The translations under genes and the position numbers were made by a program. A DNA stretch of 59,413 nucleotides, from IMG/VR virus record IMGVR_UViG_3300009034_000039, positions 1 to 59,413 of that record. One strand, 5' to 3'. This DNA comes from a virus (Duplodnaviria > Caudoviricetes). How positions within the stretch are numbered: position 1 is the stretch's first letter; each line of letters opens with the position of its first letter. A model generated the notes under the pieces. It did no database searches. It was not told the DNA's origin and worked only from the letters and a program-made list of their open reading frames with translations. Shown in pieces: positions 1,958-59,413 of the stretch.

Positions 1958-3063
1958 CAGCGGAAGACTTTACTACTTGGACGGAAGTAGATCCTAATAA
2001 CCATCTTAGTCAGACGAGCCTGAGAGCTACTTGGACTGATATGATAAGGAATGAAAAATGCTACCTATATAGAGAAGTTACTACTCTTACAGACTTCACT
2101 CACTTATTTGAATTCAGAGTAACAGCAATAGATGTTAATACAGACTTTGATAATAGGTCACTTTCGTATGTCTGGGCGGTATCTACAGCTCAACCAATAG
2201 AGTTCTGTTCTGGAACTCCTACTGCTATTGGAGTATACGTACTCGAGATTAACGTCTCAACTAATACATTTAGACTCTATCTTATTCATGGGGTGTGTGC
2301 TGTAGGTGATCCATCTAGTAGCTTAAATGTAGGTACTACTTATTATGTTACAGTCACGAAGAGTGGCGCTACTGTTACATGTACTATTTATTCTGATAGT
2401 AATCGAACTATTGTTATAGACACCTTAACTATGGATCTTACAGGAAGGCTTGAAGAAACAGGAAGCTTTAATTATGTCCAAACTGGACTTAGTGCACAGC
2501 AAACTTCAGATGGTAATGACCAGAGTGACGGCTATGTGGAGAATCTCCATCTAAACATAGCTAGTTGGGAAAGCAGTGTAAAAACTACAGATCCAGAAGA
2601 GACTATTACTGACTTATTAAATGATAATATTAATGAGGGTACTTATGACATTACAGAAGACGATGGGAGTACTCTTGCTACCTTTGCGGCTCAAGGAATA
2701 ATCTCTACAGAAACTGTAAAGGAATCGCTTCTTGATACTGATGTGATAGCAGTAGTATCTCATGGGGAAGCTATGAAAGAGCAGATAGGACTGCAGGTTT
2801 ATGAGGAAAGGATACCTATTAATATAGATATCTATGTTCTAGATAAATACTCATCAGGTAGTAGGGTAATTACTGGAACTAAACTTAGGTGGAAGACTAA
2901 AGACGAGATAATAAAGCTCTTAAAAGCAAGTACTATTACTATAGGTGGGAGCATACTGAGGTTACATCTGATAGAAGATGAGGATGATGATATAACTACT
3001 CAACGTCCTTATCTATACCATTCAATTATAAAGGCTGAGGTAATAATAGTGAGGTTTGGCTAA
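1939..3063 (+). CDS. Lectin/ConA-like beta domain fused to a tail-terminator-like domain
   Basis: N-terminal EDFTTWTEVDPN domain recurs in 5941 and 45559; C-terminal ~160 aa is a paralog of 3063-3539 (RWKTKD, TTxRPYLYHSII); start may be GTG at 1954. Confidence 0.7.
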   Translation: MESTHVTAEDFTTWTEVDPNNHLSQTSLRATWTDMIRNEKCYLYREVTTLTDFTHLFEFRVTAIDVNTDFDNRSLSYVWAVSTAQPIEFCSGTPTAIGVYVLEINVSTNTFRLYLIHGVCAVGDPSSSLNVGTTYYVTVTKSGATVTCTIYSDSNRTIVIDTLTMDLTGRLEETGSFNYVQTGLSAQQTSDGNDQSDGYVENLHLNIASWESSVKTTDPEETITDLLNDNINEGTYDITEDDGSTLATFAAQGIISTETVKESLLDTDVIAVVSHGEAMKEQIGLQVYEERIPINIDIYVLDKYSSGSRVITGTKLRWKTKDEIIKLLKASTITIGGSILRLHLIEDEDDDITTQRPYLYHSIIKAEVIIVRFG

Positions 3064-3539
3064 TGGTAGAAGACCCAAAAGATAGTCTATATGATCTCCT
3101 TAATAGTAACCTTAATACTGCAGGCTATAACATCTATAAAGATGATAACTTAACTAAAGTAACTCTTGTAGTGGAGTATGATTTACCTATAGAAACAATA
3201 GTGGAGCTGCTAGCAAGTACAGATGTAGTAATAACAGTTAAGCAGGAGCCTTCTCCAAAGGAGAGGCTTAGTAAAGGTACATTAATGGATAGTATAGGTA
3301 TAGCCATAGAAATATGGGTTATAGATAAGTATACAACAGGAACAAGGGTAGTCTCAGCAAATAAGATAAGGTGGAAGACTAAAGATGCTATACAGAAACT
3401 ATTAACAGATAATGTTAATACTCCTGGAGGAGATATAGAAATATTACGCTTAATAAGGGATAGTGATGACGATATGACTACTACAAGACCTTACCTCTAT
3501 CATTCAATCATAAGTATAAATACAATAATATATAGATAA
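3063..3539 (+). CDS. Putative tail terminator / tail completion protein
   Basis: Size, position immediately before the tail tube gene, paralogy with the preceding gene. Confidence 0.55.
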   Translation: MVEDPKDSLYDLLNSNLNTAGYNIYKDDNLTKVTLVVEYDLPIETIVELLASTDVVITVKQEPSPKERLSKGTLMDSIGIAIEIWVIDKYTTGTRVVSANKIRWKTKDAIQKLLTDNVNTPGGDIEILRLIRDSDDDMTTTRPYLYHSIISINTIIYR

Positions 3540-23952: not shown

Positions 23953-24315
23953 ATGGTAACTAAAGAGCAGAAATTACGTACTAGATTGAAGAATATAGAA
24001 CAAGCTAGTTTTACTCTTTTAGATTCTATTCAGAAAAAGATGGACTCTGGAGAAATACCATCTGATGAAGAAGTTAGATTCATTAAGAAGTTCACGTCTT
24101 TAATTAAAGATCTAGACATGATGAGGAAGACTTCTGTAGATATAGTCAAGAAACCTATTACTAATGAAAAGCTTGCAGATCTTATAAAGCGCCACGAAAA
24201 GTATGGAGTTAATGCCGATAAAATTATGGAAACTGCAGGTTACTATAAATGCACTAAATGCTCTTTATACCATAAGAAATTAGAAGGATGTCCATTTAAG
24301 GAGGTGAAGGTTTGA
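23953..24315 (+). CDS. Helical protein with C-terminal Zn finger (possible terminase small subunit)
   Basis: Coiled helices and CTKC...H...C; the function is a guess. Confidence 0.35.
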   Translation: MVTKEQKLRTRLKNIEQASFTLLDSIQKKMDSGEIPSDEEVRFIKKFTSLIKDLDMMRKTSVDIVKKPITNEKLADLIKRHEKYGVNADKIMETAGYYKCTKCSLYHKKLEGCPFKEVKV

Positions 24316-24584
24316 GACTATTTAAGAAAAAAGTAGTTAACCCTATATTAACAGACTTTGAAACTCAACTTAAAAAGAGAGGATTCTTATTAGTTAAAGC
24401 ATTTTATGTTCGACGCGATGTTTACATTAATAGTAGAAGTGAGTTTATAAGCTTTGCAAAAAGACAGGCAGTACAAACAATATTCGTCGATGAAAGTCCT
24501 ACCTATAATATTAATGATTATTTTTATTTAACTATTGGTGGACGTATAGTTAGTATAACATTGAGAAGGAGGGTTAAAGAATAG
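24312..24584 (+). CDS. Hypothetical protein
   Basis: GGAGGTG SD, TTG start. Confidence 0.55.
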   Translation: MRLFKKKVVNPILTDFETQLKKRGFLLVKAFYVRRDVYINSRSEFISFAKRQAVQTIFVDESPTYNINDYFYLTIGGRIVSITLRRRVKE

Positions 24585-24766
24585 CAGAAGGTATTCATGA
24601 AGGATCAACTGTCTACGATATATTTTACCAGTGTAAAGCTTGCAGCAAATACGTTACATGTCCAATAGAACCTGGTTCTCCAAGAATGAAGTTAATAATA
24701 GAGAATGGAGATTGTCCTAACTACAACTTTAGCAGCACTACGCGATATAGGAGAGGCTTTAAATAA
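24581..24766 (+). CDS. Cys-rich protein with probable ATA start (not in ORF track)
   Basis: 61-codon open frame (CKAC...CP...CPNY); AGGAGG at 24567-24572; ATAG overlap with the upstream stop. Confidence 0.5.
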   Translation: MAEGIHEGSTVYDIFYQCKACSKYVTCPIEPGSPRMKLIIENGDCPNYNFSSTTRYRRGFK

Positions 24767-25152
24767 ACTTTAAATACTGCTAAATGTAAAGATTATATAG
24801 AGTTAATTCCGGTGAAAGAATGAAGAAAAGAGAATGCGACTATTGTGGCGTAGAAGTTGATGTTCCAGACGATTTAGAAGATTATATACCAGTCTTCTGT
24901 TCAAAGAAATGCAGATATAAAGAAGCTGGTTGGTAAAAATGAATGAATATAAAGATATTGAAGACTTACTTAATAAACTTCTTAAAGAGAAGTATCCAAA
25001 GATAGCTAAGAACTGGGAAGTAAAATTAGTTAAAGTTAGATGGGATGAATAAAAAATGACTAAAGTTACTCTAAAAGACTTTGAGATTAAGTTGAACTTG
25101 ATAAAATTGTATTGAGAATGGTGCAAGGAAGGAATTAACTGGGAGTGTTAAA

Positions 25153-25338
25153 ATGGTAAAATGTCCTTGTCTTAATTGTTCATATTCTGTATTTATAGAT
25201 GGATACTTTAAGCATACACATGATGATGTAGTGAAAAACCTTATATCACATATAAAACATAAACATACAATAGAAGAAATTTCTGAATGGTTAGAAAGAT
25301 GTGTAGTTGAATATGTTTTAAAAGATGGAGACTGGTAA
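25153..25338 (+). CDS. C2H2-like Zn-finger protein
   Basis: CPCLNC...HIKHKH. Confidence 0.5.
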   Translation: MVKCPCLNCSYSVFIDGYFKHTHDDVVKNLISHIKHKHTIEEISEWLERCVVEYVLKDGDW

Positions 25339-25341
25339 TAA

Positions 25342-25578
25342 ATGGTAGGAACGCATGGATCTCTTAGTAAAGCAGGTAAGTCTAGAGATAGAACTAAGCA
25401 TCTAATAAAAAGAGACGAGAGAGGTAAAGTAATACATCATAATAAGCCTCATAAAAGCCCTTTAAGGAGAAATAGAAATAACTATCACAAGAAAGTCACT
25501 TTAGTACGCATTTATGGCCAAGATGCTTGCAAGAATCCTAAAGAAAGTGGAAAAAGAAGAAGGAGGAAACGTAGATGA
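25342..25578 (+). CDS. rps30e: Ribosomal protein eS30 (S30e)-like
   Basis: THGSLSKAGK N-terminal signature, RNRNNYHKK helix motif, LxRxxGQ tail; highly basic. Confidence 0.8.
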   Translation: MVGTHGSLSKAGKSRDRTKHLIKRDERGKVIHHNKPHKSPLRRNRNNYHKKVTLVRIYGQDACKNPKESGKRRRRKRR

Positions 25579-25763
25579 GAGATGAAGTTCAAGTTCAAGA
25601 ATGCGGTTGTAAAATAGGAAGGACAAAGGTTGGTATGTGGGTTTACGATTATCTATGCGATATACACGTTAAACAGGTTAAAAAGAATGGTAAATACTCT
25701 TTTGAGAAAGCATGTAAATTAACAGAGAAACTGAATAAAGACATGAAGGAGAAGACTAACTAA
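25575..25763 (+). CDS. Cys/His hypothetical protein
   Basis: CGC...CDIH; overlapping start. Confidence 0.5.
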   Translation: MRDEVQVQECGCKIGRTKVGMWVYDYLCDIHVKQVKKNGKYSFEKACKLTEKLNKDMKEKTN

Positions 25764-25978
25764 TGAGACGTATAATGAAAACAAGTCTATTATATCAGAT
25801 AGTGAATATAATATGTGCTTGTTTATCTTCTCTTTTAATATGGTGCCTTACTGATAGAGATTTTATGGCTACAATCATAATAACTTTAGTTATTTTACTT
25901 ACTATTATTGCTATGTTAGCGCATTATGTTTCTCGCCAGTATATTATTAGAGAAGAATTGGAGAATAAAGTAAGATGA
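25763..25978 (+). CDS. Small two-TM membrane protein
   Basis: Two hydrophobic segments. Confidence 0.55.
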   Translation: MRRIMKTSLLYQIVNIICACLSSLLIWCLTDRDFMATIIITLVILLTIIAMLAHYVSRQYIIREELENKVR

Positions 25979-26084
25979 AGTGTCCAAACTGTGGAGAAAA
26001 TAGAGAAGCATACTTTATATTTTCTTGTGGTGCATCTACGGCGAAATGTTTAAGTTGTGGTCACGAATTTGAGGTAGAATAAAA

Positions 26085-26303
26085 ATGGCTAAGTGTCCAA
26101 ACTGTGGTTATCCAAGAGTCAAATACAACGTCTCTAGAAGGCAGTATCATAAAGGACATTCTCATGGGAACATAGAACCCAGAAAAGACTTTAACGCTTA
26201 TTGCCCTAAATGCAAGAAGAAATGGATAGATAGTAATGATCCAGACATAGTTCTAAAACACATAATAGAGAAGAATGATGAAATATTAAAGGGATTAGCA
26301 TGA
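26085..26303 (+). CDS. Zn-ribbon protein
   Basis: CPNCG...CPKC. Confidence 0.6.
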   Translation: MAKCPNCGYPRVKYNVSRRQYHKGHSHGNIEPRKDFNAYCPKCKKKWIDSNDPDIVLKHIIEKNDEILKGLA

Positions 26304-26485
26304 CTAGAACTATTACACATCGAACTAAAAATAAGCATAGATTATGGCCTTTATGCCCGGAATGTAAACATGCCATGAGATATATATGTTCTAATACTTA
26401 CATTTGTAGAGATTGCAAGATGAGAGCTACGTGGAACCATAATAGAAAAGAATGGGAGTTCGAAAAGAGTAAAAAACTATTATAA
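26300..26485 (+). CDS. Zn-ribbon protein
   Basis: CPEC...CRDC. Confidence 0.55.
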   Translation: MTRTITHRTKNKHRLWPLCPECKHAMRYICSNTYICRDCKMRATWNHNRKEWEFEKSKKLL

Positions 26486-27097
26486 AGAGGTGAAGAGAAA
26501 AAATGTGTAAACTATGTGCAGAAGCACTAGAAAAACGAAATAAAGGAGAAATAACTAATGAAGAACTAGATTTAGTGATGATTAATTGTGTTAAAAAAGC
26601 AAGAAGAAAAGAATCTGAAGAACTTAAAAATAAAGGAGTATCATTAATTAAGGAGGTGTAATTAATTGAGCACTTCAAATAATGAATTTAAATGTCCAAT
26701 GTGTAAAGGTACTAAACAGATTCCTCAACCAAGCGAAGTAGATTGTACTGCTGTTAAATACGATATATGCCCACTATGTGGTGGAAGTGGTACTCTTAGC
26801 GCAATAGAAATAAAAATTCTTAGTTAAGTGATTAGTAATGAGAGAAAAGATCCTCTTTATAAGAGTTAAAGATCCTGTGGAAGGCCAACCAGTAGCTTAT
26901 CTTAAAATACCTGGAGAATGGTTCGGCAGTATTGAAATACCATACTATTATCTTTATTTTTATCAATAAAGTGTTAGATATGAAGCGTAAAAAAGTAAGT
27001 AAGTTCAAGCTAGAACAAAAGTGTAAGAATCCTAAGTGTAACAAGATGATCTCAATACCTATGGTTTACTGTAGTTCTATATGCTGGAGAGAATGTA

Positions 27098-27286
27098 ATG
27101 GAGAAAGCTGAGTTCTGTTGGAACAGCAGAAGATGGATAGAATTAATGGTTCTAAGACTAGGAGCTCCAGATACGTGTCCTAATCAGAAGATGCAGTTAA
27201 CTAAATGTGAAGAATGTGGGTATTACGAAATGCGAGAACCGACTAAGTATCTTCTTTATATAAGAAAAGTTTTAATGAGTTTCTAA
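27098..27286 (+). CDS. Cys-rich hypothetical protein
   Basis: FCW...CP...CEECGYY. Confidence 0.5.
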   Translation: MEKAEFCWNSRRWIELMVLRLGAPDTCPNQKMQLTKCEECGYYEMREPTKYLLYIRKVLMSF

Positions 27287-27673
27287 TTGTAGAAAGATTT
27301 AAAATGAATAACTATAAATTAGACAGTGTTATAAGATATATTTGTGATGAACATGGTTGAAGTTATAGTTAAAACGAGATCAGGGAAAGTTTATCCAGCA
27401 ACAGACTGCAATCGAAAGCAACTAATTAAAGCTAGAAATAAGATTAATGCCATTATAGATAGAAGACTCTTAAAATAAATTGATGTTAAAAGGTCACTAG
27501 AAGTCACTAATTTAGTCGCTTTTTAATCGTTTTTAGTATACTATACTCTAGTCGAGCTAAAGGCCCTAGTACTCGGCAAGAGGTTTTATAATAGAGTGTA
27601 GGACTCACTAGAGAAGTAGTAGGAAGTATGCGCCGGCCTCCTTATACGGGAGTATTTTGCCGACGGAGAGGAG

Positions 27674-27685
27674 AAAGGTTTATAT
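27674..27685 (+). promoter_or_regulatory. BRE/TATA promoter upstream of structured RNA candidate 1
   Basis: AAAGGTTTATAT about 22 nt before the first helix; no + strand ORF follows. Confidence 0.6.
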
Positions 27686-27706
27686 TCTAATATAGCGCTA
27701 TATCTA

Positions 27707-27975
27707 TTGAGCGCCAAAGAACGCCTGAGAACGGCCAAAGACCTTTCAGGCCTACAGGACCGCAAGGTTGTCTGGGGTCAAATAAGACATTAGAAGTCGG
27801 CGCTTAAGCATACTCCTGTCCCCATAAGGGATTAACAGGTTGAGAGCAAAGCGCAGATCTGATCGAATAAGATCGCTCCTTTCGGATGATAGATCTGTAG
27901 CCGCTCTCGTAATTCATTAACAACCACCACAGGCCAGTGGAGCTGCGTAAAGCTGGATGGTAGCTGAGGCTGCAG
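27707..27975 (+). ncRNA. Candidate structured non-coding RNA 1, unknown class
   Basis: GC-enriched; helices 27707-15/27799-807, 27723-30/27744-51, GACC-GCAA-GGTT tetraloop, 27842-47/27903-08, 27853-60/27891-98 and others; G-U pairs favour the + strand. Confidence 0.65.
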
Positions 27976-28304
27976 CGTAGCGCGACCTGATATACTCTTA
28001 TACACTTCTTCTCTACAAGTCTAGTACCTGGAATAGACGTCAACATCCTTTATAGACACGCTCATATACAGTAGCGAGTCATGGCGCGACGTCAGCATAC
28101 TACTTTACTGTCTCTATAATGGGAGGTCACTATTTTGCCGAGCACTCCTTATCACTACTATTAAATAATAAATCTTAAGAACTATTTGATGATGATGATA
28201 GTTGTAAAGAAAACATTTAGATATTATATAAATAGAATCATTGTGTTAAATGATAGAAAAGTTTTAATAGAGCCATCGGTTACTATCTATAGGTGAGAAT
28301 GTAA

Positions 28305-28505
28305 ATGGGTTATAAATTAAAAATAAAGTACAATAATTCTGAAGGGGAAGGAGAAATCATACTAACAGATAGTAACAAACTTAAAGCCACAGGTATTGTA
28401 TTAAACAATGCTAATGCAGGACCAGCATTAATAGACTTGATTAGAAAACTTACATCATGGATGAGTAAGAATAATATACACTCTCTGGAGATAGAAGAAG
28501 AGTAA
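28305..28505 (+). CDS. Small hypothetical protein between the two RNA candidates
   Basis: Own TATA (28257-28269) and AGGTG SD. Confidence 0.65.
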   Translation: MGYKLKIKYNNSEGEGEIILTDSNKLKATGIVLNNANAGPALIDLIRKLTSWMSKNNIHSLEIEEE

Positions 28506-28544
28506 CGTTTAAATAATTGTTTGAACATAGTTAAGTATGTCCCT

Positions 28545-28940
28545 GCTTCATAGTACTCTTCAATGCGTCTATGGAGACTTTGAGCCACAAGGGCTACACG
28601 AAGCTTAAGTGATGCGGCAATGCAGCGTACAAGACCAAGCCGTATAGTTTAATGAATATATACATCCTGAGAAACTGGCCGGAGTCGTGACCGGTTATGG
28701 CTCAGGCGGGATGGGAAGACAGAGGGAAATCAGAATACCTTTGTGTGTATGACGCCCTATCCTGATTAAAATATAATGGATCGTCAGGATGTTGCTGGGA
28801 TGATAACATTCCTGGTTAATGATTAACACTTAACTTAACCTAATTAGGTGTTAATTGGCGTGGGGATCTTTGGTCTCCTTTGGCAAAGAGACGGGATGCA
28901 CTACATACTTCACGTAGCCAAGTATGTTTGGTGGCATCCA
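28545..28940 (+). ncRNA. Candidate structured non-coding RNA 2, unknown class
   Basis: TATA at 28504-28515; long helices 28546-53/28569-76, 28612-18/28639-45, 28666-71/28701-06, 28707-15/28755-64, 28784-94/28804-15, 28822-33/28844-55, 28894-910/28920-39. Confidence 0.7.
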
Positions 28941-29004
28941 TCAATATGAACTAGAAAGCTTTAATAGTTCTAGAGACATTCATAGATTATACGGAGGTGA
29001 AACT

Positions 29005-29559
29005 ATGGAATTAGAGAGATTTAAGGAAACTCTGCTTGAGTTCCTCAGTGATGTGACTACAATATCAGAGAAGGCAAAGACAACATTCATACATGATGAT
29101 GGCTCCTGGGTACCTAATCAGGCGCCTAATGATTATGTAGTTCTGACTGACTTCTTATTGGTTAAAGTACAAACATCTACTAAGATACCGGATAGACCAA
29201 TTCCTACTAGAGGAAAAGATGAAGAGACGACTCCAACAAATGAAGTACAAGGAGGAGAGATATATCATTGTATAGTTAAATTTGCATTCTTTACGGAGAA
29301 GAATGTTTACTATATAAGTGCAACATGGCTAAACAACACTGCTCAGTATTTAGGTGCTATGTGTAATAGCCGTACCTCTAGGCCTGGAGAGAATTGGGTA
29401 AGAGGTCATGACTTACCAGACGGCTACTTCTGTCGCGAGACATGGGAAAGGATTAAAAATCGCTTTGTAAAAGGCGAGATGAAAGCCTTGTCTAAATACA
29501 TCACTAGCGGTCGGTATATGTATCCTCAAGCAGACATAGAGAAAGAAGTATGCGGATAA
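29005..29559 (+). CDS. Conserved hypothetical viral protein
   Basis: TATA at 28955-28966 and GGAGGTG SD place the start at 29005; YLG...RPGENWxRGxDLPDG motif. Confidence 0.65.
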   Translation: MELERFKETLLEFLSDVTTISEKAKTTFIHDDGSWVPNQAPNDYVVLTDFLLVKVQTSTKIPDRPIPTRGKDEETTPTNEVQGGEIYHCIVKFAFFTEKNVYYISATWLNNTAQYLGAMCNSRTSRPGENWVRGHDLPDGYFCRETWERIKNRFVKGEMKALSKYITSGRYMYPQADIEKEVCG

Positions 29560-29579
29560 TATAAGAATAGACCAAATTT

Positions 29580-29607
29580 GGACTAATGATAGTCCATACC
29601 TCTTTTT
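29580..29607 (+). terminator. Hairpin plus T-tract
   Basis: GGACTA-ATGA-TAGTCC followed by TCTTTTT. Confidence 0.45.
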
Positions 29608-29699
29608 ATATAGATTTAATGTAGTATGCCATAAAATAGGTAACTACTTTAAAGCTTGTAAAAGAAAGATTTAAATAACAAGGAGTACTTATCTTAATC

Positions 29700-29957
29700 G
29701 TGTTGAAATTGCCTGAAAGATTAGATATTAATCCAGATGTGGATCATCCAGATAACGATCCACCAACTCTATCTTGGTATGAAGCGGTTACACCAAAGAC
29801 ATGTAAAATTTGTAATGGGTCTTTAGGACTTATAGAGCATTATGATCATGATGGCGGATGGTTAGTTGACGGCTTTGAAAAGAAGCAGTGGCTTTACCGT
29901 ACCTGTTTTAAGTGTGGATATCAGTGGGCTATTTGGAAGCTGGGCGTTCCGAGGTAA
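29700..29957 (+). CDS. Zn-ribbon protein
   Basis: CKIC...CFKCG; TATA at 29665-29677. Confidence 0.6.
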   Translation: MLKLPERLDINPDVDHPDNDPPTLSWYEAVTPKTCKICNGSLGLIEHYDHDGGWLVDGFEKKQWLYRTCFKCGYQWAIWKLGVPR

Positions 29958-29999
29958 GGTTTAAATAATACCGGGTACCTAAGATAAATAGGTGTTAAA

Positions 30000-30248
30000 T
30001 TGAAAGTAATTTGCAGCTCTTGTAACGTTTTAATGCAACTGGATAAGATAGGTCTAGTACTCTATAATCTTACAGTTGATGATTGTGTTGCATTCATTAT
30101 TAAAGCTGATCAATATAAATGTCTATGTTGTAACTCTTCAGTTATAACTGATATGGGTATACCATTCTACTTTCCACACTCTTTATCAATGGAAGAGTTT
30201 AAAGAGAAATTTAAGAAGAACTTATGTTTAAACTATAGTTGGTTGTAA
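30000..30248 (+). CDS. Zn-ribbon protein
   Basis: CSSC...ADQYKCLCC; TATA at 29956-29967. Confidence 0.55.
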   Translation: MKVICSSCNVLMQLDKIGLVLYNLTVDDCVAFIIKADQYKCLCCNSSVITDMGIPFYFPHSLSMEEFKEKFKKNLCLNYSWL

Positions 30249-30545
30249 AATGGGTTATACAAATATAACTGAAACAATGAGGCTTAACCGCTATAACCTG
30301 AAGAGGCTAACGGAGGAAGAACTAGATCATCTACAGAATTCGGAACATCTATCAGCAAAGTTTAAATTAGCTTTATTACGCTTTAGAAGTGTGAAAGTAA
30401 GATGACTAAAATAAAATGTCCTCAGACACACTGTAAAGATAATAAAGAAGGATTCTGTCAGGCAAAAGAGATAGAATTAGAACAAGAACCCTATCACGCT
30501 CCTGAATGTATGAATATGTATTGTCCTTGGAAGAAAGATTAAAAC

Positions 30546-32120
30546 ATGTTCAGAATAAGAGGAACAGATAGACGTAAAGAGTTCGTAAAGGGTACTCTAG
30601 TAGAAGCTCAACAGATCCGAGGTAAGAAGGTAGAGTACTTTAGTCCGGAGACAGGTTTTATCTTACTTAAAAGGATAATGCCTATTAACTATACTAAGAA
30701 AGTCATACAGAGAGCTAGATCAGCAGCTAAGCTTAGTTTAGAGACTCCTCTCTCATTAAGAGAGTTCTATTATACTTTGAGAGTTACACCAGATCTAGTT
30801 AAAGCTTTCGATACTGGTAATCCAGACGCTATCTATCCTATGGTATTGAGAGCTATATGTGACGTTGAGATCTTATGTGATATAGGCCGAGAGTACTTTA
30901 CAGTGGGAAACCTTAGTAAAGGCTTTATCTACTATTACCACTCTGAGAAGTTTAGTGACAAGGACAGAATGATTGCATTCACTGAGAACATAGCTAGATC
31001 AGCTCTAGCTGACGAAGAACTAGAAGCATGTGAAAACATTATAGTAATCGAGAAGAACGCTGCAGCTACTAGGTTAGTTGATCTAGGTATGTCAGAGCTA
31101 ACTAACAGCGTTATAGTGACAGTTGGTGGAAACTTTAACCGAGCAATATGGGCTCTAACTGACAGGTTTAAAGACTCTAAGAATATCATATACTTTTGTG
31201 ACGCTGATGCCTACGGTGTAGACATGCTTAGGACTATAGCTGTAGGGACTAAGAATAGTAGACATTTAACATTTAAGTTTCCTCCAGCAAAGAACCCTAA
31301 CATATACTTAGCTGGTCTATATCCGTCTGTCGGTGAGAGTTTAGGACTACCTAACGACGTCCAGCAGAAGAGGCCTTTAGCTAACCCATTCGTACAGAGA
31401 AGGATTAACTTCTTACGTAGCCACGGGCTACTAAACCAACAGGATTACGATACATGGATGAGAGATAAGACCTACGAGCTAGAGTCTCTTTCTACAGCTT
31501 ATAAGAGTAGGAAGGACGGTAAACCTATAGGCTTAGCTATTCACCTGATAGAATACATGAGGCTCTTTGAGATACCAGTTAAGCCTCCTCTTCCACCAGA
31601 TGAAGAGTTGGAAAAAGAGTTTAGGAAGAAAGCTTACGAAGAGCTTAAGAGTGAAATTGAAGAGAAGCTTCAGTATCCTAAGGTAGTATGGGATCTATAC
31701 TGGCACTTTGAACAGGCTAAGAAGGATTTAATAGAAGAGATCTTTGAAGACCTTAAACCAGAATACGATGACGCTTTAGACGAAGTGACAGCTAAAGAGA
31801 TTAAGTTCCATATCTATAAGCAGTTTGAAGAGGATCCAGAACGGGCTACATACGATCTTAAAGCGATAGCTCATAAGCTTAAAGTACAGTTTGACATTAA
31901 ACCAGAATGGAAAGCAGATGAACTTACAGAGAGAGTTGAAGGCGCACTGGCAGACTATAAAGCAGAGGTTGTCGAGTTCGTTAAAGAAGTTGTCTTTGCT
32001 CCAATACATAACGAGACTACTATCATAGACACCTACGACTTGATACTTCAGAAGCTGGGTGCGGACCCGGAGGATTGTAGGAAAGTAAGAGAAGCTCTAG
32101 AGAAGAGGTTTAAGGAATGA
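30546..32120 (+). CDS. Topoisomerase VI subunit A / Spo11-like protein with long C-terminal extension
   Basis: WHD LREFYY (catalytic Tyr), TOPRIM VIEK and DADAYG, YELESL. Confidence 0.85.
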   Translation: MFRIRGTDRRKEFVKGTLVEAQQIRGKKVEYFSPETGFILLKRIMPINYTKKVIQRARSAAKLSLETPLSLREFYYTLRVTPDLVKAFDTGNPDAIYPMVLRAICDVEILCDIGREYFTVGNLSKGFIYYYHSEKFSDKDRMIAFTENIARSALADEELEACENIIVIEKNAAATRLVDLGMSELTNSVIVTVGGNFNRAIWALTDRFKDSKNIIYFCDADAYGVDMLRTIAVGTKNSRHLTFKFPPAKNPNIYLAGLYPSVGESLGLPNDVQQKRPLANPFVQRRINFLRSHGLLNQQDYDTWMRDKTYELESLSTAYKSRKDGKPIGLAIHLIEYMRLFEIPVKPPLPPDEELEKEFRKKAYEELKSEIEEKLQYPKVVWDLYWHFEQAKKDLIEEIFEDLKPEYDDALDEVTAKEIKFHIYKQFEEDPERATYDLKAIAHKLKVQFDIKPEWKADELTERVEGALADYKAEVVEFVKEVVFAPIHNETTIIDTYDLILQKLGADPEDCRKVREALEKRFKE

Positions 32121-32320
32121 AAAGAACAGCAAAATGTGATTTGTGTGATTTTGAAATAACAAAAAATGGACATTGGCAAACTCGTAATGCCATTCATAAT
32201 CACATCAGAACAGTGCATCCGAAAGAATGGGCAAAACATTTTGAATATAATAAAAAGATAAGACACCAAATAACAAAGTTAAGACAAAAAATACAACTAC
32301 TTTGGAAGTTTATAGATTGA
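32117..32320 (+). CDS. C2H2 Zn-finger protein
   Basis: CDLC...HIRTVHP. Confidence 0.6.
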   Translation: MKRTAKCDLCDFEITKNGHWQTRNAIHNHIRTVHPKEWAKHFEYNKKIRHQITKLRQKIQLLWKFID

Positions 32321-32453
32321 CTCATCGAGAACTAGAAGTTTATCTTGGTAGAGGCCTTTCGAATAGAGTTTATCGCAAGATTACTGATGAACGGATAACT
32401 GTTTGGATAGACGACATTAAAGTGTACGATTCAGAAGACTTGGAGGATTAAAG

Positions 32454-32669
32454 ATTACACAAAATAATGAGAAAGAGAAACTTAAAGAGTTAATGTTAAG
32501 TAACTTTGGTCAGATAGTAGATAAAGAAGAAATTATGAAGATCTTTAAAGAAGAACTTAAGAAAGAAGCTAAGCGAATTATAAAGACTTACTTTGAACAG
32601 ATTGTTCCAGATGAAGCTAAGATGTCTGACTTAATAAGAGATGTTATAATTAGGATGGTAAAGAAATGA
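32454..32669 (+). CDS. Hypothetical helical protein (ATT or downstream ATG start)
   Basis: Open frame ending in an ATGA overlap with 32666; GGAGG at 32442-32446. Confidence 0.45.
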   Translation: MTQNNEKEKLKELMLSNFGQIVDKEEIMKIFKEELKKEAKRIIKTYFEQIVPDEAKMSDLIRDVIIRMVKK

Positions 32670-41498: not shown

Positions 41499-41888
41499 TG
41501 ATTTATATAACTCTTTTAACATAGTAGTTATTGCAAGAATTTATTCTGAGTAGCCACATAGAGGGGCAGAATATGCGACCAGAACCTTTACCTGTTCTTA
41601 AAGGTAAAAGTGCAAAAGAATTCATGAAACAAGTAGCGAAGCCCTCAAGTCAAAGAGATTTAGAGACTTTCAAGAAAGCTGAAAAAGTTTTCAAGGGAAT
41701 AAAACCAGCAAAATAGAAACGTTTTAAGTTAGATTAGATCGTTCTGAACAATCAGATGCGGCAACTCGCTATTGTTTTCCCTTGGGTAAGGAAGAACTGT
41801 GACTTAGTTGACTAAACCCATGTCGCCATGTTAACTCTCGCTCTAATTTAATCCTTTGATTTATATACTTCTTTTAGCATAGTATTTA
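41497..41888. repeat. 34-nt imperfect direct repeats (41497-41530 and 41855-41888) flanking a small gene
   Basis: TTTGATTTATATAACTCTTTTAACATAGTAGTTA vs TTTGATTTATATACTTCTTTTAGCATAGTATTTA, 30/34 identical. Confidence 0.9.
41573..41716 (+). CDS. 47-aa protein within the repeat-flanked segment
   Basis: ATG after GAGGGG; MRPEPLPVLKGKSAKEF. Confidence 0.6.
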   Translation: MRPEPLPVLKGKSAKEFMKQVAKPSSQRDLETFKKAEKVFKGIKPAK

Positions 41889-50589: not shown

Positions 50590-51311
50590 AAGTTATTCTA
50601 TTAGTAGCTTTAAAAGACAGTGAAGATATTCTAGACGACTGGTTTAAGTACGTTAACTTATTAGATCCACAGCCAGATAAGATTATATTTTGTGAGAATA
50701 ACAGTACAGATAAAACTTTAGATAAGCTCCAGGACTGTAAGGTAGACTATGAACTAATAAGATTCTGGACTAGGCCTTGGAAAGAGATAGCTAAGATAAA
50801 CAGGTATTTGACTATTGCTGTAGCTAGACAGTTCTTATTAACTAAAGCCAGATATTTAGATCCAGACAACGCTATATTCTTAGACGATGATGTATTCTCT
50901 AAGAGTAGAGATATGATAGAGTCTTTGACTACATGGGGTTTAGATATAGTTGGTGGACCTTATTTGAGACTATTCCCTACTGGTATCTTTATAGGATCTC
51001 TTTGGAGAGACGCTACGAGAAGGTATAAATATACAACGATAAAGAAGATTAGAAGAGTTCTAGACGAGCCAATAGCTACTAGTGCTGGGTGTCTGTGCTT
51101 AAGTAGAAAGGTTATCCAGGATAGGAGACTTAACTTCTATCCTAGACCTAAGCCAGACGCTTCAGAGGACTTTGGTTACTGTCTTAAGGCTAGGGAGTTA
51201 GGGTATAATATTTACTTGGACGGATTACTTACCTTAACTCACAGACTTAGAAGGAAGAAGAGAGCTTGGATGAGAGATGGTAAAGATGGTAAGTTTATAT
51301 ACGAAGAGTAA
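50586..51311 (+). CDS. GT-A fold (family 2-like) glycosyltransferase
   Basis: ENNSTDKT, FLDDD, SEDFGYC. Confidence 0.85.
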   Translation: MKVILLVALKDSEDILDDWFKYVNLLDPQPDKIIFCENNSTDKTLDKLQDCKVDYELIRFWTRPWKEIAKINRYLTIAVARQFLLTKARYLDPDNAIFLDDDVFSKSRDMIESLTTWGLDIVGGPYLRLFPTGIFIGSLWRDATRRYKYTTIKKIRRVLDEPIATSAGCLCLSRKVIQDRRLNFYPRPKPDASEDFGYCLKARELGYNIYLDGLLTLTHRLRRKKRAWMRDGKDGKFIYEE

Positions 51312-51352
51312 TATTTAAATACTTGTTTAGCTTAATATTAATCAGATAAGAA

Positions 51353-51556
51353 ATGGTAGCTAGACAGACAAAGAAAAATGGTTGTAAAGTTACTTATTGT
51401 GACTACCATATCTGTGGAAGTATGAGCTGTATAGGTCGCGAGGAAGATAATATAACCATTCTTAAATATCCAAATGCTTGTAATAGAGGAATGGCTTGGA
51501 TGGCTGATGCACTAGCTGGTAAGAAGGTTAGAAGTTTTTACCATAATAAAGTCTAG
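51353..51556 (+). CDS. Cys-rich hypothetical protein
   Basis: TATA at 51310-51321. Confidence 0.45.
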   Translation: MVARQTKKNGCKVTYCDYHICGSMSCIGREEDNITILKYPNACNRGMAWMADALAGKKVRSFYHNKV

Positions 51557-52090
51557 AATCTTTTTAATAACTAAGTCCCATCTATCAAACTCTTTAGCAG
51601 TTATATGTAGACTTTCTATACCGAATGAAGCAAACCACTTATCCTTTCTAGCGTCTGCCTTCTTAGTCATCTTATGGAAAGGACCATCTGCTTCTATTCT
51701 CTTCTGGGTAAAGGGATTATAGAAGTCTATCCTGCATCTACCACTTTTAGGACCAGGGAAAGGACAGTTATGAATAAAGTCATTAGCAACATCTAGGTAT
51801 ATTAGAAACATCCAAGTTAACTCTTCTAGAGAAGACCAGTGGTTATAGTGCCATCTACGTGAACAGGAAGAAGAGAACTTAATAAAGGCTACTTCTCTAG
51901 GGGAAGTACGTGGATACTTCCTATTAGTGGCTCTGCAGAAAGCTCTATAGCCACCGAACACTTCCATAAGCCTCTCAAAGAGTTCAGGCCTCTTCTTCTT
52001 AACCGTCTTATAATGAGGAGTACCTCTTTTAAGTTCTTCTCTAAACTCAGTCTCAAAAGCTATGTTTAGATCTTTACGAATAAAGCTCAA
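51512..52090 (-). CDS. DUF559/Vsr-like PD-(D/E)XK endonuclease
   Basis: RIDFY...IEADGPFH...DARKDKW...G; TTG start at 52090 preferred. Confidence 0.75.
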   Translation of the reverse strand: MSFIRKDLNIAFETEFREELKRGTPHYKTVKKKRPELFERLMEVFGGYRAFCRATNRKYPRTSPREVAFIKFSSSCSRRWHYNHWSSLEELTWMFLIYLDVANDFIHNCPFPGPKSGRCRIDFYNPFTQKRIEADGPFHKMTKKADARKDKWFASFGIESLHITAKEFDRWDLVIKKILDFIMVKTSNLLTS

Positions 52091-52226
52091 TGATCTTGTT
52101 GAGCATTTTGATGAAGGCTGGTTTCTTTGTACTTTCTCCAAGTAACTCAACTGCCCGCCAGAACTTACCATACTCAGTTGGTGTTAGTGTAAATTGTAAA
52201 CTTTTAGTCTTAGACCGTTTGTTCAA
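52074..52226 (-). CDS. 50-aa RHH-like protein (not in ORF track)
   Basis: MNKRSKTKSLQFTLTPTEYGKFW...; TTG start overlapping the upstream gene. Confidence 0.5.
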   Translation of the reverse strand: MNKRSKTKSLQFTLTPTEYGKFWRAVELLGESTKKPAFIKMLNKIIELYS

Positions 52227-59134: not shown

Positions 59135-59330
59135 AAGAAAAATAAAGAGGAAGATGGGAAGTATGAAGTCTCTGCATAAGTTAATACTCGGTCTATTCAC
59201 TATAGGCTGTATAACTGTGTTAGAAGCGGTAAATATTATCTACTTAGGTGTAGATGGTAGCGTTCTAACAGGAGTTGTAGCGTCTATAGCAGGAATAGTC
59301 GGAATAGTTATAGGAAAGAAAAGTAAATAG
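59124..59330 (+). CDS. Two-TM membrane protein
   Basis: Hydrophobic hairpin with basic ends. Confidence 0.6.
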   Translation: MENKRKIKRKMGSMKSLHKLILGLFTIGCITVLEAVNIIYLGVDGSVLTGVVASIAGIVGIVIGKKSK

Positions 59331-59342
59331 GGAGATAGATAA

Positions 59343-59413
59343 GGCGACTGGTAAGAAGACTAAGGTGTTTGATGTTGAGATGGCGACTGGTAAGAAGACT
59401 AAGGTGTTTGATG
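59343..59413. repeat. Terminal direct repeat (right copy)
   Basis: Identical to 1-71. Confidence 0.97.

What the first reader, a model, noticed from the sequence alone, without database searches (positions are those of the whole stretch)
27707..27975. Unclassified ~270-nt multi-domain structured RNA with its own promoter
Seen: a TATA box followed by a closed multibranch domain (9-bp closing stem, GCAA tetraloop), a hairpin, a three-way junction (GAGAGC/GCTCTC, GCAGATCT/AGATCTGT) and a further junction. It is GC-enriched in an AT-rich genome and has no + strand ORF. I do not see SRP, RNase P, tRNA or hammerhead signatures. Inferred: a new viral ncRNA class.
Basis: partly seen in the sequence, partly recalled or inferred. 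Interest (0 to 1): 0.8.

Follow-up and report, generated by a model that had tools for sequence, protein, structure and literature searches.

The report
Orphan GC-rich structured RNA candidate
A gene-free, GC-rich stretch of about 600 bases in an archaeal-type tailed virus genome folds into a rod-closed, branched shape slightly better than chance, but with no relatives and no expression data it is only a candidate non-coding RNA.

Summary
The coordinates are too narrow and the evidence is thin.

- **Extent.** 27707-27975 is the apical core of a larger ORF-free GC island, about 27560-28150. It has 46.5% GC against 36.7% for the genome. 60 nested long-range base pairs close it.
- **Flank complementarity.** The two flanks pair better than 60 of 60 shuffles (z -3.0).
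- **Folding excess.** Overall it is modest: z -2.2 to -2.6 on + and -2.3 to -3.1 on -, so the strand is undetermined.
- **Known families.** None of the 4227 Rfam families matches. ROOL, GOLLD and a group II intron model were also tested singly, without a match. ARAGORN finds no tRNA or tmRNA.
- **Relatives.** The island is single-copy and lies in a hypervariable accessory block. That block is absent from the only complete relative. I found no similarity in 20 further related loci or in about 400 archaeal genomes.
- **Untested.** Covariation and transcription could not be tested.

Best reading (about 0.35): a large structured RNA, either stand-alone or a long leader of the next small gene. Inert spacer DNA is nearly as likely. 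A second, + strand-biased structured gap follows at 28506-29004.

The parts
27560..28150 (.). Whole candidate element: an ORF-free GC island predicted to fold as a long rod capped by a multi-branched core. Strand not determined.
   Evidence: GC 0.46-0.50. 8 or more stops in every frame. MFE -186.1 kcal/mol with z -2.22 on +, and -189.7 with z -3.10 on -. 60 long-range pairs.
27707..27975 (+).
   Evidence: z -2.38 (+) and -2.92 (-). The helices keep probability 0.75-1.0 in three different sequence contexts.
27560..27701 (.). Left arm of the closing rod. It holds the helix strands 27560-63, 27568-79, 27609-31, 27667-86 and 27695-701, with two side hairpins.
   Evidence: The arm-to-arm cofold gain is -25.2 kcal/mol, against -12.6 +/- 4.2 in shuffles; 0 of 60 shuffles reach it.
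27977..28150 (.). Right arm of the closing rod, with three side hairpins (28020-32, 28036-93, 28118-34).
27842..27908 (.). Three-way junction (GAGAGC/GCUCUC, GCAGAUCU/AGAUCUGU, and two small hairpins). It is the only locally outstanding fold in the island.
   Evidence: Pair probabilities 0.97-1.0. The 150-nt window 27751-27900 gives z -2.58 (+) and -3.67 (-). The AGATCT core is a DNA palindrome, read.
27679..27686 (+). It would place a start near 27707, but it is paired with 27989-99 in the large fold.
   Evidence: The 12-mer around it is not enriched in the genome: 23 matches against 16.1 +/- 4.2 expected.
27520..27541 (+). Two T5 runs, which look like archaeal terminators for the upstream genes, plus a T/A-rich stretch. 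This stretch could be an alternative promoter for an RNA starting near 27560.
   Evidence: Read. This is inference only.
28226..28233 (-). TTTATATA on the - strand, a possible promoter for a leftward transcript through the island.
   Evidence: Read. This is inference only.
28305..28505 (+). 66-aa ORF with an AGGTGA ribosome-binding-like site 8 nt upstream. It would be the cargo if the island is a 5' leader.
   Evidence: Apart from itself it has no homologue.
28506..29004 (+). Second ORF-free, GC-enriched gap. It begins with a TTTAAATA box (28508) and shows a + strand-biased fold.
   Evidence: 28506-28923 folds to -127.6 kcal/mol (z -3.22, 0 of 100 shuffles) on + and to -100.1 (z -1.97) on -. 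Over 28506-29004 the MFE has 25 G-U pairs on + and 13 on -. The true start of the next gene is 29005.
29005..29559 (+). 184-aa accessory gene. The 211-aa ORF call starts 27 codons too early.
   Evidence: All 16 homologues align from MELERF onward. No Pfam, PHROG or NCBIfam family. No PDB fold match at E <= 0.001.

Best explanation
The host genome is a complete 59.4-kb archaeal-type tailed virus.

The element is most likely transcribed and folds into a long imperfect rod: 60 nested long-range pairs in four helical segments, separated by side hairpins. The rod is capped by a multi-branched core made of a closed multiloop, a hairpin, a three-way junction and two hairpins.

I think it acts as RNA in one of two ways. 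It may be a stable stand-alone transcript that serves as a protein-binding scaffold or decoy during infection. Or it may be a long structured leader that sets the stability or translation of the 66-aa gene that follows.

What is shown: it is non-coding, GC-enriched and single-copy; its flanks are complementary beyond chance; and it matches no known family. What is inferred: that it is transcribed, its strand, its ends, and any function.
For: 1. It is the longest + strand ORF gap in the genome (826 nt, 27479-28304). Together with the next gap it is the only GC-enriched one, at 0.41-0.43 overall and 0.46-0.50 in the core. Three of the other four gaps are at 0.29-0.35. The fourth, at 0.40, overlaps the - strand gene 51512-52171.

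2. Long, GC-enriched intergenic regions are the criterion of a published structured-RNA discovery pipeline. I read the abstract of PMC8632094.

3. All six frames are closed under the standard code and under any single stop reassignment. The longest - strand ORF has no homologue and no Pfam family. There is no translated similarity to any related locus.

4. The flanking arms pair with each other far better than shuffled arms do: gain -25.2 against -12.6 +/- 4.2 kcal/mol, with 0 of 60 shuffles reaching it.

5. The long-range helices have probabilities of 0.80-0.97. The core helices persist in three different sequence contexts.

6. Global z-scores range from -2.2 to -3.1.

7. 5 of the 60 long-range pairs are G-U on the + strand, against one A/C mismatch that would be G-U on the - strand.

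8. Base composition is nearly strand-symmetric (A 176, T 156, C 142, G 147), unlike the purine-skewed coding strand around it.

9. TATA-like boxes in this genome normally lie 30-55 nt before start codons: 29670, 29960, 33676, 12603, 52682, 41860. The boxes at 27679 and 28508 are followed by 626 and 497 nt without a gene.
Against: - There is only one sequence. I found no homologue, so there is no covariation evidence. There is also no expression evidence of any kind.
- The thermodynamic excess is modest. It is strand-symmetric or slightly better on the - strand.
- Only 1 of 7 local 150-nt windows in the island is unusual on the + strand. 3 of 37 coding background windows reach the same level.
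- No T5 terminator follows the element on the + strand (read).
- The element is absent from the closest complete relative, so it is dispensable for this virus lineage.
- Any GC-rich insert in an AT-rich genome yields low folding energies. Only the shuffle tests control for this.
Confidence: 0.35

Rival explanations
1. Inert spacer: a decayed or foreign, higher-GC DNA remnant in a fast-turnover accessory block. The predicted fold would be what any 47% GC sequence of this length gives, plus a few chance inverted repeats.
For: - The island lies in window 24087-30528, which has no counterpart in the otherwise collinear relative G001.
- It is single-copy and an orphan.
- z-scores are only about -2 to -3 and are strand-symmetric.
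- Most local windows fold no better than shuffles.
Against: - Arm-to-arm complementarity exceeds 60 of 60 shuffles.
- No trace of a coding past was found: no Pfam family, no homologue and no tblastx similarity.
- Compact viral genomes rarely keep 600 nt of junk. Here 826 and 499 nt of gene-free sequence sit side by side, each behind a TATA-like box.
Confidence: 0.33
2. One reading: an independent RNA of about 270 nt, started about 25 nt downstream of the TTTATATT box at 27679 and ending near 27975.
For: - The box resembles those upstream of genes in this genome, with purine-rich bases before it.
- A start near 27707 would coincide with the first base of the 9-bp closing stem.
- The core folds on its own with z -2.38.
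Against: - There is no T-run or other end signal near 27975.
- This reading leaves unexplained the GC enrichment and the above-chance complementarity of the flanks 27560-27701 and 27977-28150.
- The box itself pairs within the larger fold.
- TATA-like octamers are common in a 37% GC genome: 30 matches on the + strand, several of them inside genes.
Confidence: 0.12
3. A DNA-level element: a replication origin, a recombination site or a protein-binding control region. Alternatively, a non-autonomous mobile element (MITE-like) bounded by imperfect terminal inverted repeats (AGTACTCGGCAA / TTGCCGAGCACT).
For: - The stability is strand-symmetric.
- A 12-nt inverted repeat with 92% complementarity lies at the edges (I5).
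- Similar 14-mers flank the island: GAAGTCACTAATTT at 27500 and GAGGTCACTATTTT at 28123 (D2).
- 3 of the 4 + strand GTCACTA copies in the genome flank the island.
- The location is in a variable block.
Against: - Origins are usually AT-rich with iterons. Only one small tandem repeat lies upstream, at 27511-35.
- GTCACTA is not enriched genome-wide: 11 matches against 9.1 expected.
- The arms match over only about 60 of about 150 positions, with bulges, which is too imperfect for a cruciform or for transposon ends.
- The right inverted repeat lies outside the right direct repeat, while the left one lies inside. That does not fit a TIR plus target-duplication layout.
- No second copy exists in this genome. 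None was found in 2 MAGs or in the 401 sampled genomes, where there were only five 24-38-nt chance-level hits.
Confidence: 0.15

Closest known systems
ROOL and GOLLD, the large ornate non-coding RNAs of bacteriophages and bacteria (Rfam RF03087 and RF02032). Their biology is recalled, not read here.
   Same: Similar size class: the ROOL model has 574 positions. Like them, this element is virus-borne, non-coding, multi-branched, and not attached to an obvious cognate protein gene.
   Different: Neither covariance model matches at E <= 10 (and 3, 4, 51). There are no neighbouring tRNA genes. The host virus is archaeal-type rather than bacterial. Here there is a single orphan copy, with no family behind it.
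GC-rich intergenic structured-RNA candidates (the GC-IGR approach, PMC8632094, abstract read). An earlier use of GC islands to find RNA genes in AT-rich archaea is recalled, not read.
   Same: It meets both selection criteria: an unusually long intergenic region and GC content well above the genome's.
   Different: Those studies accept a motif only after comparative analysis shows conservation or covariation. Here no second sequence exists to compare.
Long structured 5' leaders (cis-regulatory RNAs such as riboswitches or stability elements)
   Same: The element sits on the coding strand, upstream of a small gene with a ribosome-binding-like site. A TATA-like box lies far from the start codon. 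A neighbouring gene (29005) has a similar 497-nt structured gap.
   Different: About 600 nt is far longer than typical leaders. No riboswitch or leader family matches. The downstream 66-aa gene has no homologues, so no conserved leader-gene pairing can be shown.
MITE-like non-autonomous transposons
   Same: Non-coding, a few hundred nt long, with inverted complementarity between the ends, and located in a variable region.
   Different: It is single-copy, has poor terminal repeats, shows no consistent target-site duplication, and has a branched rather than hairpin-like interior.

Membership tests
Any Rfam 15 family (4227 models) | Covariance-model score at or above the family's gathering threshold | tested here: not met
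   0 matches over the whole window. At E <= 10 there are 0 matches in 27660-28000. In 27200-28500 there is one irrelevant match, at 27250-27279.
ROOL (RF03087) | Match to the 574-position covariance model | tested here: not met
   No match at E <= 10. The tool's 14 control genomes did not ring either, so that call alone is weak. The all-family scans agree with it.
GOLLD (RF02032) | Match to the covariance model | tested here: not met
   No match at E <= 10; 14 candidates were scored.
Group I / group II self-splicing introns | Match to the intron core models; flanking exons of an interrupted gene | tested here: not met
   group-II-D1D4-1 gives no match, while its controls rang in 10 genomes. 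No intron family appears at E <= 10. The flanking ORFs have no homologues that would reveal a split gene, so the exon test is inconclusive.
Small self-cleaving ribozymes (hammerhead and others) | Conserved catalytic core within the three-way junction | tested here: not met
   No ribozyme family at E <= 10 in a 341-nt search with permissive filters. The cleavage assay cannot be done with these tools.
tRNA, tmRNA, RNase P RNA, SRP RNA | Detection by ARAGORN or the Rfam models | tested here: not met
   ARAGORN finds 0 genes. Rfam finds none.
GC-IGR type structured-RNA candidate | Long intergenic region with GC content above the genome's | tested here: met
   The gap is 826 nt, the longest of the 6 + strand gaps. 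Core GC is 0.46-0.50 against a genome value of 0.367 (sd 0.044).
GC-IGR type structured-RNA candidate | Conservation and covariation among homologues | not testable with these tools
   No homologue was found in:
- the phage records;
- the complete relative G001;
- 18 metagenome loci;
- 2 MAGs;
- 401 sampled genomes;
- two 18-mer scans of IMG/VR, which gave 4 and 5 chance hits;
- 24 sources searched with a single-sequence covariance model.
MITE-like mobile element | Multiple copies, terminal inverted repeats and a target-site duplication | tested here: not met
   One copy in the genome and none elsewhere. The repeat layout is inconsistent.

The most novel reading that the evidence does not exclude
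A stand-alone, rod-closed 'ornate' non-coding RNA of about 590 nt, encoded by an archaeal tailed virus. It would be the first large structured ncRNA class known from archaeal viruses and a functional analogue of phage ROOL/GOLLD, acting as a scaffold or decoy during infection. It may work together with the second structured RNA immediately downstream (28506-29004).
Probability: 0.15. Interest if true: 0.7.

Novelty: new variant of a known kind. Interest (0 to 1): 0.35.

Why it matters
Large structured non-coding RNAs without a known function are rare. To my recollection they are known from bacteria and their phages and not from archaeal viruses; my one relevant literature search listed no such paper among the 15 shown. 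If this island is a real RNA, archaeal viruses would also carry large ornate RNAs. That would give a compact target of about 600 nt for structure probing or cryo-EM. As it stands, the practical value is narrower. It has a companion element next door. It cannot be promoted beyond 'candidate' until a second sequence or a transcript is found.

Tried and rejected
**Known RNA families.**
- Whole-window and local Rfam scans, ARAGORN, and single-family tests for ROOL, GOLLD and group-II-D1D4-1 found nothing.
- RF01998 was entered from a wrong recollection of GOLLD's accession. It turned out to be a group II intron model, and that result is reported as such.

**Homologue hunting.**
- blastn against the phage records: none.
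- Two 18-mer scans of IMG/VR: 4 and 5 loci, all matching over the 18 nt only.
- Neighbour-gene scans of IMG/VR with the Toprim gene, PolB, the 211-aa ORF, alignments A1 and A2, and the 66-aa ORF yielded L002 (a locus of the complete relative G001) and L003, a 5.5-kb contig with a 24%-identical PolB.
- The metagenome scan with A1 gave 18 loci. The species-genome scan gave 2.
- None of these showed blastn, nhmmer, tblastx or covariance-model similarity to the island.
- Large + strand gaps in relatives turned out to be other things. L019 7099-7729 is - strand coding with z -0.78. L014 4748-5359 is a repeat-rich, non-GC-enriched intergenic region.
- DNA search of 2 MAGs and of 401 genomes of one archaeal phylum gave only chance-level short hits.

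**Protein checks.**
- The - strand 80-aa ORF has no homologue.
- The structure prediction and PDB fold search for the downstream 184-aa protein gave no match at E <= 0.001.

**Tools and searches that gave nothing usable.**
- The look-up of sequencing runs listed no run and no RNA holder, so read laying could not be used.
- The metagenome records behind my loci are not held for whole-record search.
- The look-up of encoding contigs is declared closed and was not called. As a result the 3.2-kb contig encoding P0002 could not be fetched. P0002 is 82% identical to the downstream gene, so that contig is the most promising source of a homologous island.

**Signals and motifs.**
- The bacterial promoter and terminator scan was not above shuffles.
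- No bulge-helix-bulge splicing motif was seen in the long-range helices (my reading).

**Literature.** Three searches listed no paper on structured RNAs of archaeal viruses among those shown. Supplements were not consulted.

Full report
**Context.** The window is a complete virus record of 59,413 bases with 71-nt direct terminal repeats and 36.7% GC.
- Of the 46 ORF entries of at least 120 aa (one frame is listed twice), 44 lie on the + strand.
- The genome encodes a family B DNA polymerase. Its best tblastn matches in the phage collection are haloarchaeal tailed viruses, at about 25% identity.
- It also encodes a RadA/Rad51 recombinase with an HHH_5 N-terminus, a tail tube protein, a terminase, a portal, a prohead protease, and a protein with the Topo VI-A/Spo11 Toprim domain.
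- Relatives of that Toprim protein occur on contigs binned into a Thermoplasmata MAG.
- I therefore read it as an archaeal-type tailed virus. The host itself is not established.

**The observation.**
- Reproduced: the 9-bp closing stem 27707-15/27799-807; the stem 27723-30/27744-51; the hairpin 27815-39; the three-way junction built on GAGAGC/GCUCUC and GCAGAUCU/AGAUCUGU; and the hairpin 27927-40. Their pair probabilities are 0.75-1.0, and they persist when 269, 454 or 621 nt are folded.
- Not reproduced: the GCAA tetraloop hairpin is not in the MFE or the centroid. The 'further junction' is predicted as a stem with an internal loop.
- The region is GC-enriched: 0.46-0.50 in 200-nt windows, against a genome mean of 0.367 with sd 0.044.
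- It is non-coding. All six frames carry at least 8 stops across 27540-28160, and no single stop reassignment opens a frame.
- The longest - strand ORF (80 aa) has no Pfam family and no homologue.

**Is it more than chance?** Only moderately.
- The 269-nt region gives z -2.38 on + (2 of 200 shuffles fold as well) and z -2.92 on - (0 of 200).
- Of the seven 150-nt windows inside the island, only 27751-27900, which holds the three-way junction, reaches z <= -2 on the + strand. 3 of 37 coding background windows do as well.

**The real extent.**
- The + strand ORF gap runs from 27479 to 28304. At 826 nt it is the longest in the genome.
- The GC island spans about 27540-28160.
- Folding 27540-28160 gives 60 long-range base pairs, which join 27560-27701 to 27977-28150 in nested helical segments. 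The main ones are 27572-79/28135-42, 27609-31/28095-116, 27667-86/27989-28014 and 27695-701/27977-83. Their probabilities are 0.80-0.97.
- I tested this closure separately. Co-folding the two arms gains -25.2 kcal/mol, against -12.6 +/- 4.2 with a shuffled right arm. 0 of 60 shuffles reach it, on either strand.
- The whole 591-nt element gives z -2.22 on + (1 of 100 shuffles) and z -3.10 on - (0 of 100).
- So the anatomy is a long imperfect rod with side hairpins, capped by the multi-branched core. The strand cannot be assigned from energy. Only a slight G-U asymmetry favours +: 5 G-U pairs in the rod on +, against one position that would be G-U on -.

**Promoter.**
- Octamers of the TTTAWATA type sit 30-55 nt upstream of several start codons. 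Examples are 29670 before 29700, 29960 before 30000, 33676 before 33717, 12603 before 12644, 52682 before 52725, and 41860 before 41915. This fits archaeal TATA boxes with short leaders.
It would put a start at about 27707, the first base of the closing stem.
- In the large fold, however, the same box is base-paired with 27989-99.
- Such octamers are frequent, with 30 on the + strand. The surrounding 12-mer is not enriched.
- There are alternatives. A T/A-rich stretch at 27520-41 follows two T5 runs that look like terminators for the upstream genes. A perfect TTTATATA lies on the - strand at 28233-28226. Both are read.
- No T5 run follows the element on the + strand, so read-through into the 66-aa ORF at 28305 is possible. 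That ORF has an AGGTGA site 8 nt upstream. 'Own promoter' is plausible but unproven.

**Known families.** None of the 4227 Rfam families matches at its gathering score anywhere in the window.
- At E <= 10 nothing matches in 27660-28000. In 27200-28500 there is only an irrelevant hit, outside the island.
- Single-family tests for ROOL, GOLLD and a group II intron model were negative.
- ARAGORN finds no tRNA or tmRNA.

**Relatives.** The island is single-copy in the genome.
- The only complete relative, G001, is 51 kb with terminal repeats. Conserved proteins are about 45-70% identical, and the genome is collinear with the window. It has no counterpart to window 24087-30528, so the island lies in a hypervariable accessory block. 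G001 has no DNA match to it.
- Eighteen metagenome loci and two MAG loci carry the neighbouring Toprim gene. None shows blastn, nhmmer, tblastx or covariance-model similarity.
- Searches of the phage records, of IMG/VR by two 18-mers, of 2 MAGs and of 401 sampled genomes of one archaeal phylum gave nothing beyond chance.
- No sequencing run was listed.
- Covariation and expression, the two tests that would decide the matter, therefore could not be run.

**A companion element.** The next gap is 28506-29004. Alignment with 16 homologues shows that the following gene really starts at 29005.
- The gap begins with a TTTAAATA box at 28508 and has 0.43 GC.
- It folds much better on + than on -. For 28506-28923 the values are -127.6 kcal/mol (z -3.22, 0 of 100 shuffles) on + and -100.1 kcal/mol (z -1.97) on -.
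- Over 28506-29004 the MFE has 25 G-U pairs on + and 13 on -.
- Its only Rfam hits are far below threshold.
- Two consecutive TATA-like boxes, each followed by about 500-600 nt of GC-enriched gene-free sequence and then a small gene, argue that this block makes unusually long structured transcripts.

**Interpretation.** I weigh four readings.
- *Best reading (0.35).* The island is transcribed and acts as a large structured RNA, either a stand-alone scaffold or decoy, or a long leader of the 66-aa gene.
- *Inert remnant of higher-GC DNA in a fast-turnover region (0.33).* This is nearly as likely.
- *DNA-level or mobile-element readings (0.15).* These fit the strand symmetry and the edge repeats. 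They do not fit the poor, bulged arm complementarity, the GC-richness, or the single copy.

**Novelty.** If the element is real, it belongs to no known family. It would resemble the large ornate RNAs of phages (ROOL, GOLLD; their biology is recalled, not read) only in size and setting. With one sequence and no transcript it is a candidate, not a class.

Noticed in passing
window 28506-29004: A second ORF-free, GC-enriched gap (0.43) behind a TTTAAATA box. It has a clearly + strand-biased predicted fold: z -3.22 on + against -1.97 on -, and 25 against 13 G-U pairs. It may be a better structured-RNA candidate than the finding itself. The only Rfam hit is a sub-threshold DABA-DC-AT match (18 bits against a threshold of 56).
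   Followed up: partly
window 28924-29559: The 211-aa ORF call starts too early. All 16 metagenomic homologues (45-82% identity) begin at MELERF, which is 29005. The family has no Pfam, PHROG or NCBIfam name. Its AlphaFold model (pLDDT 71.9) has no PDB fold match at E <= 0.001.
   Followed up: yes
window 25342-25578: A 78-aa ORF with weak, sub-threshold similarity to the archaeal/eukaryotic ribosomal protein S30e. NCBIfam gives E 2.2e-5 at 24 bits against a cut-off of 75. Pfam Ribosomal_S30 gives E 0.013. It may be a virus-encoded eS30-like protein.
   Followed up: partly
window 24087-30528 versus G001 28373-32617: A hypervariable accessory block in otherwise collinear genomes. It holds many 30-85-aa ORFs, some zinc-ribbon-like (for example 26666-26827). 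The relative has no tblastx similarity in this block.
   Followed up: partly
window 28491-28522 and 51297-51328: A shared 32-nt stretch (84% identity) covering a gene end plus a TTTAAATA box. A similar pair of boxes lies at 41502 and 41860 (TTTATATA followed by ctcttttaacatagta and cttcttttagcatagta). These are probably reused promoter modules.
   Followed up: no
window 2824-3031 and 3306-3513; also 36-75, 476-515 and 59312-59411: An internal 208-nt duplication at 67% identity spans two adjacent structural-region ORFs. Short repeats lie near the terminal repeat.
   Followed up: no
L014 4748-5359: A related 60.7-kb metagenome contig has a 612-nt ORF-free region that is not GC-enriched. It carries several direct repeats (gagtagatatata twice, a run of tgtaca-like units, cattagtgaccctctaa twice). 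It looks like an origin or control region and is unrelated to the island.
   Followed up: no
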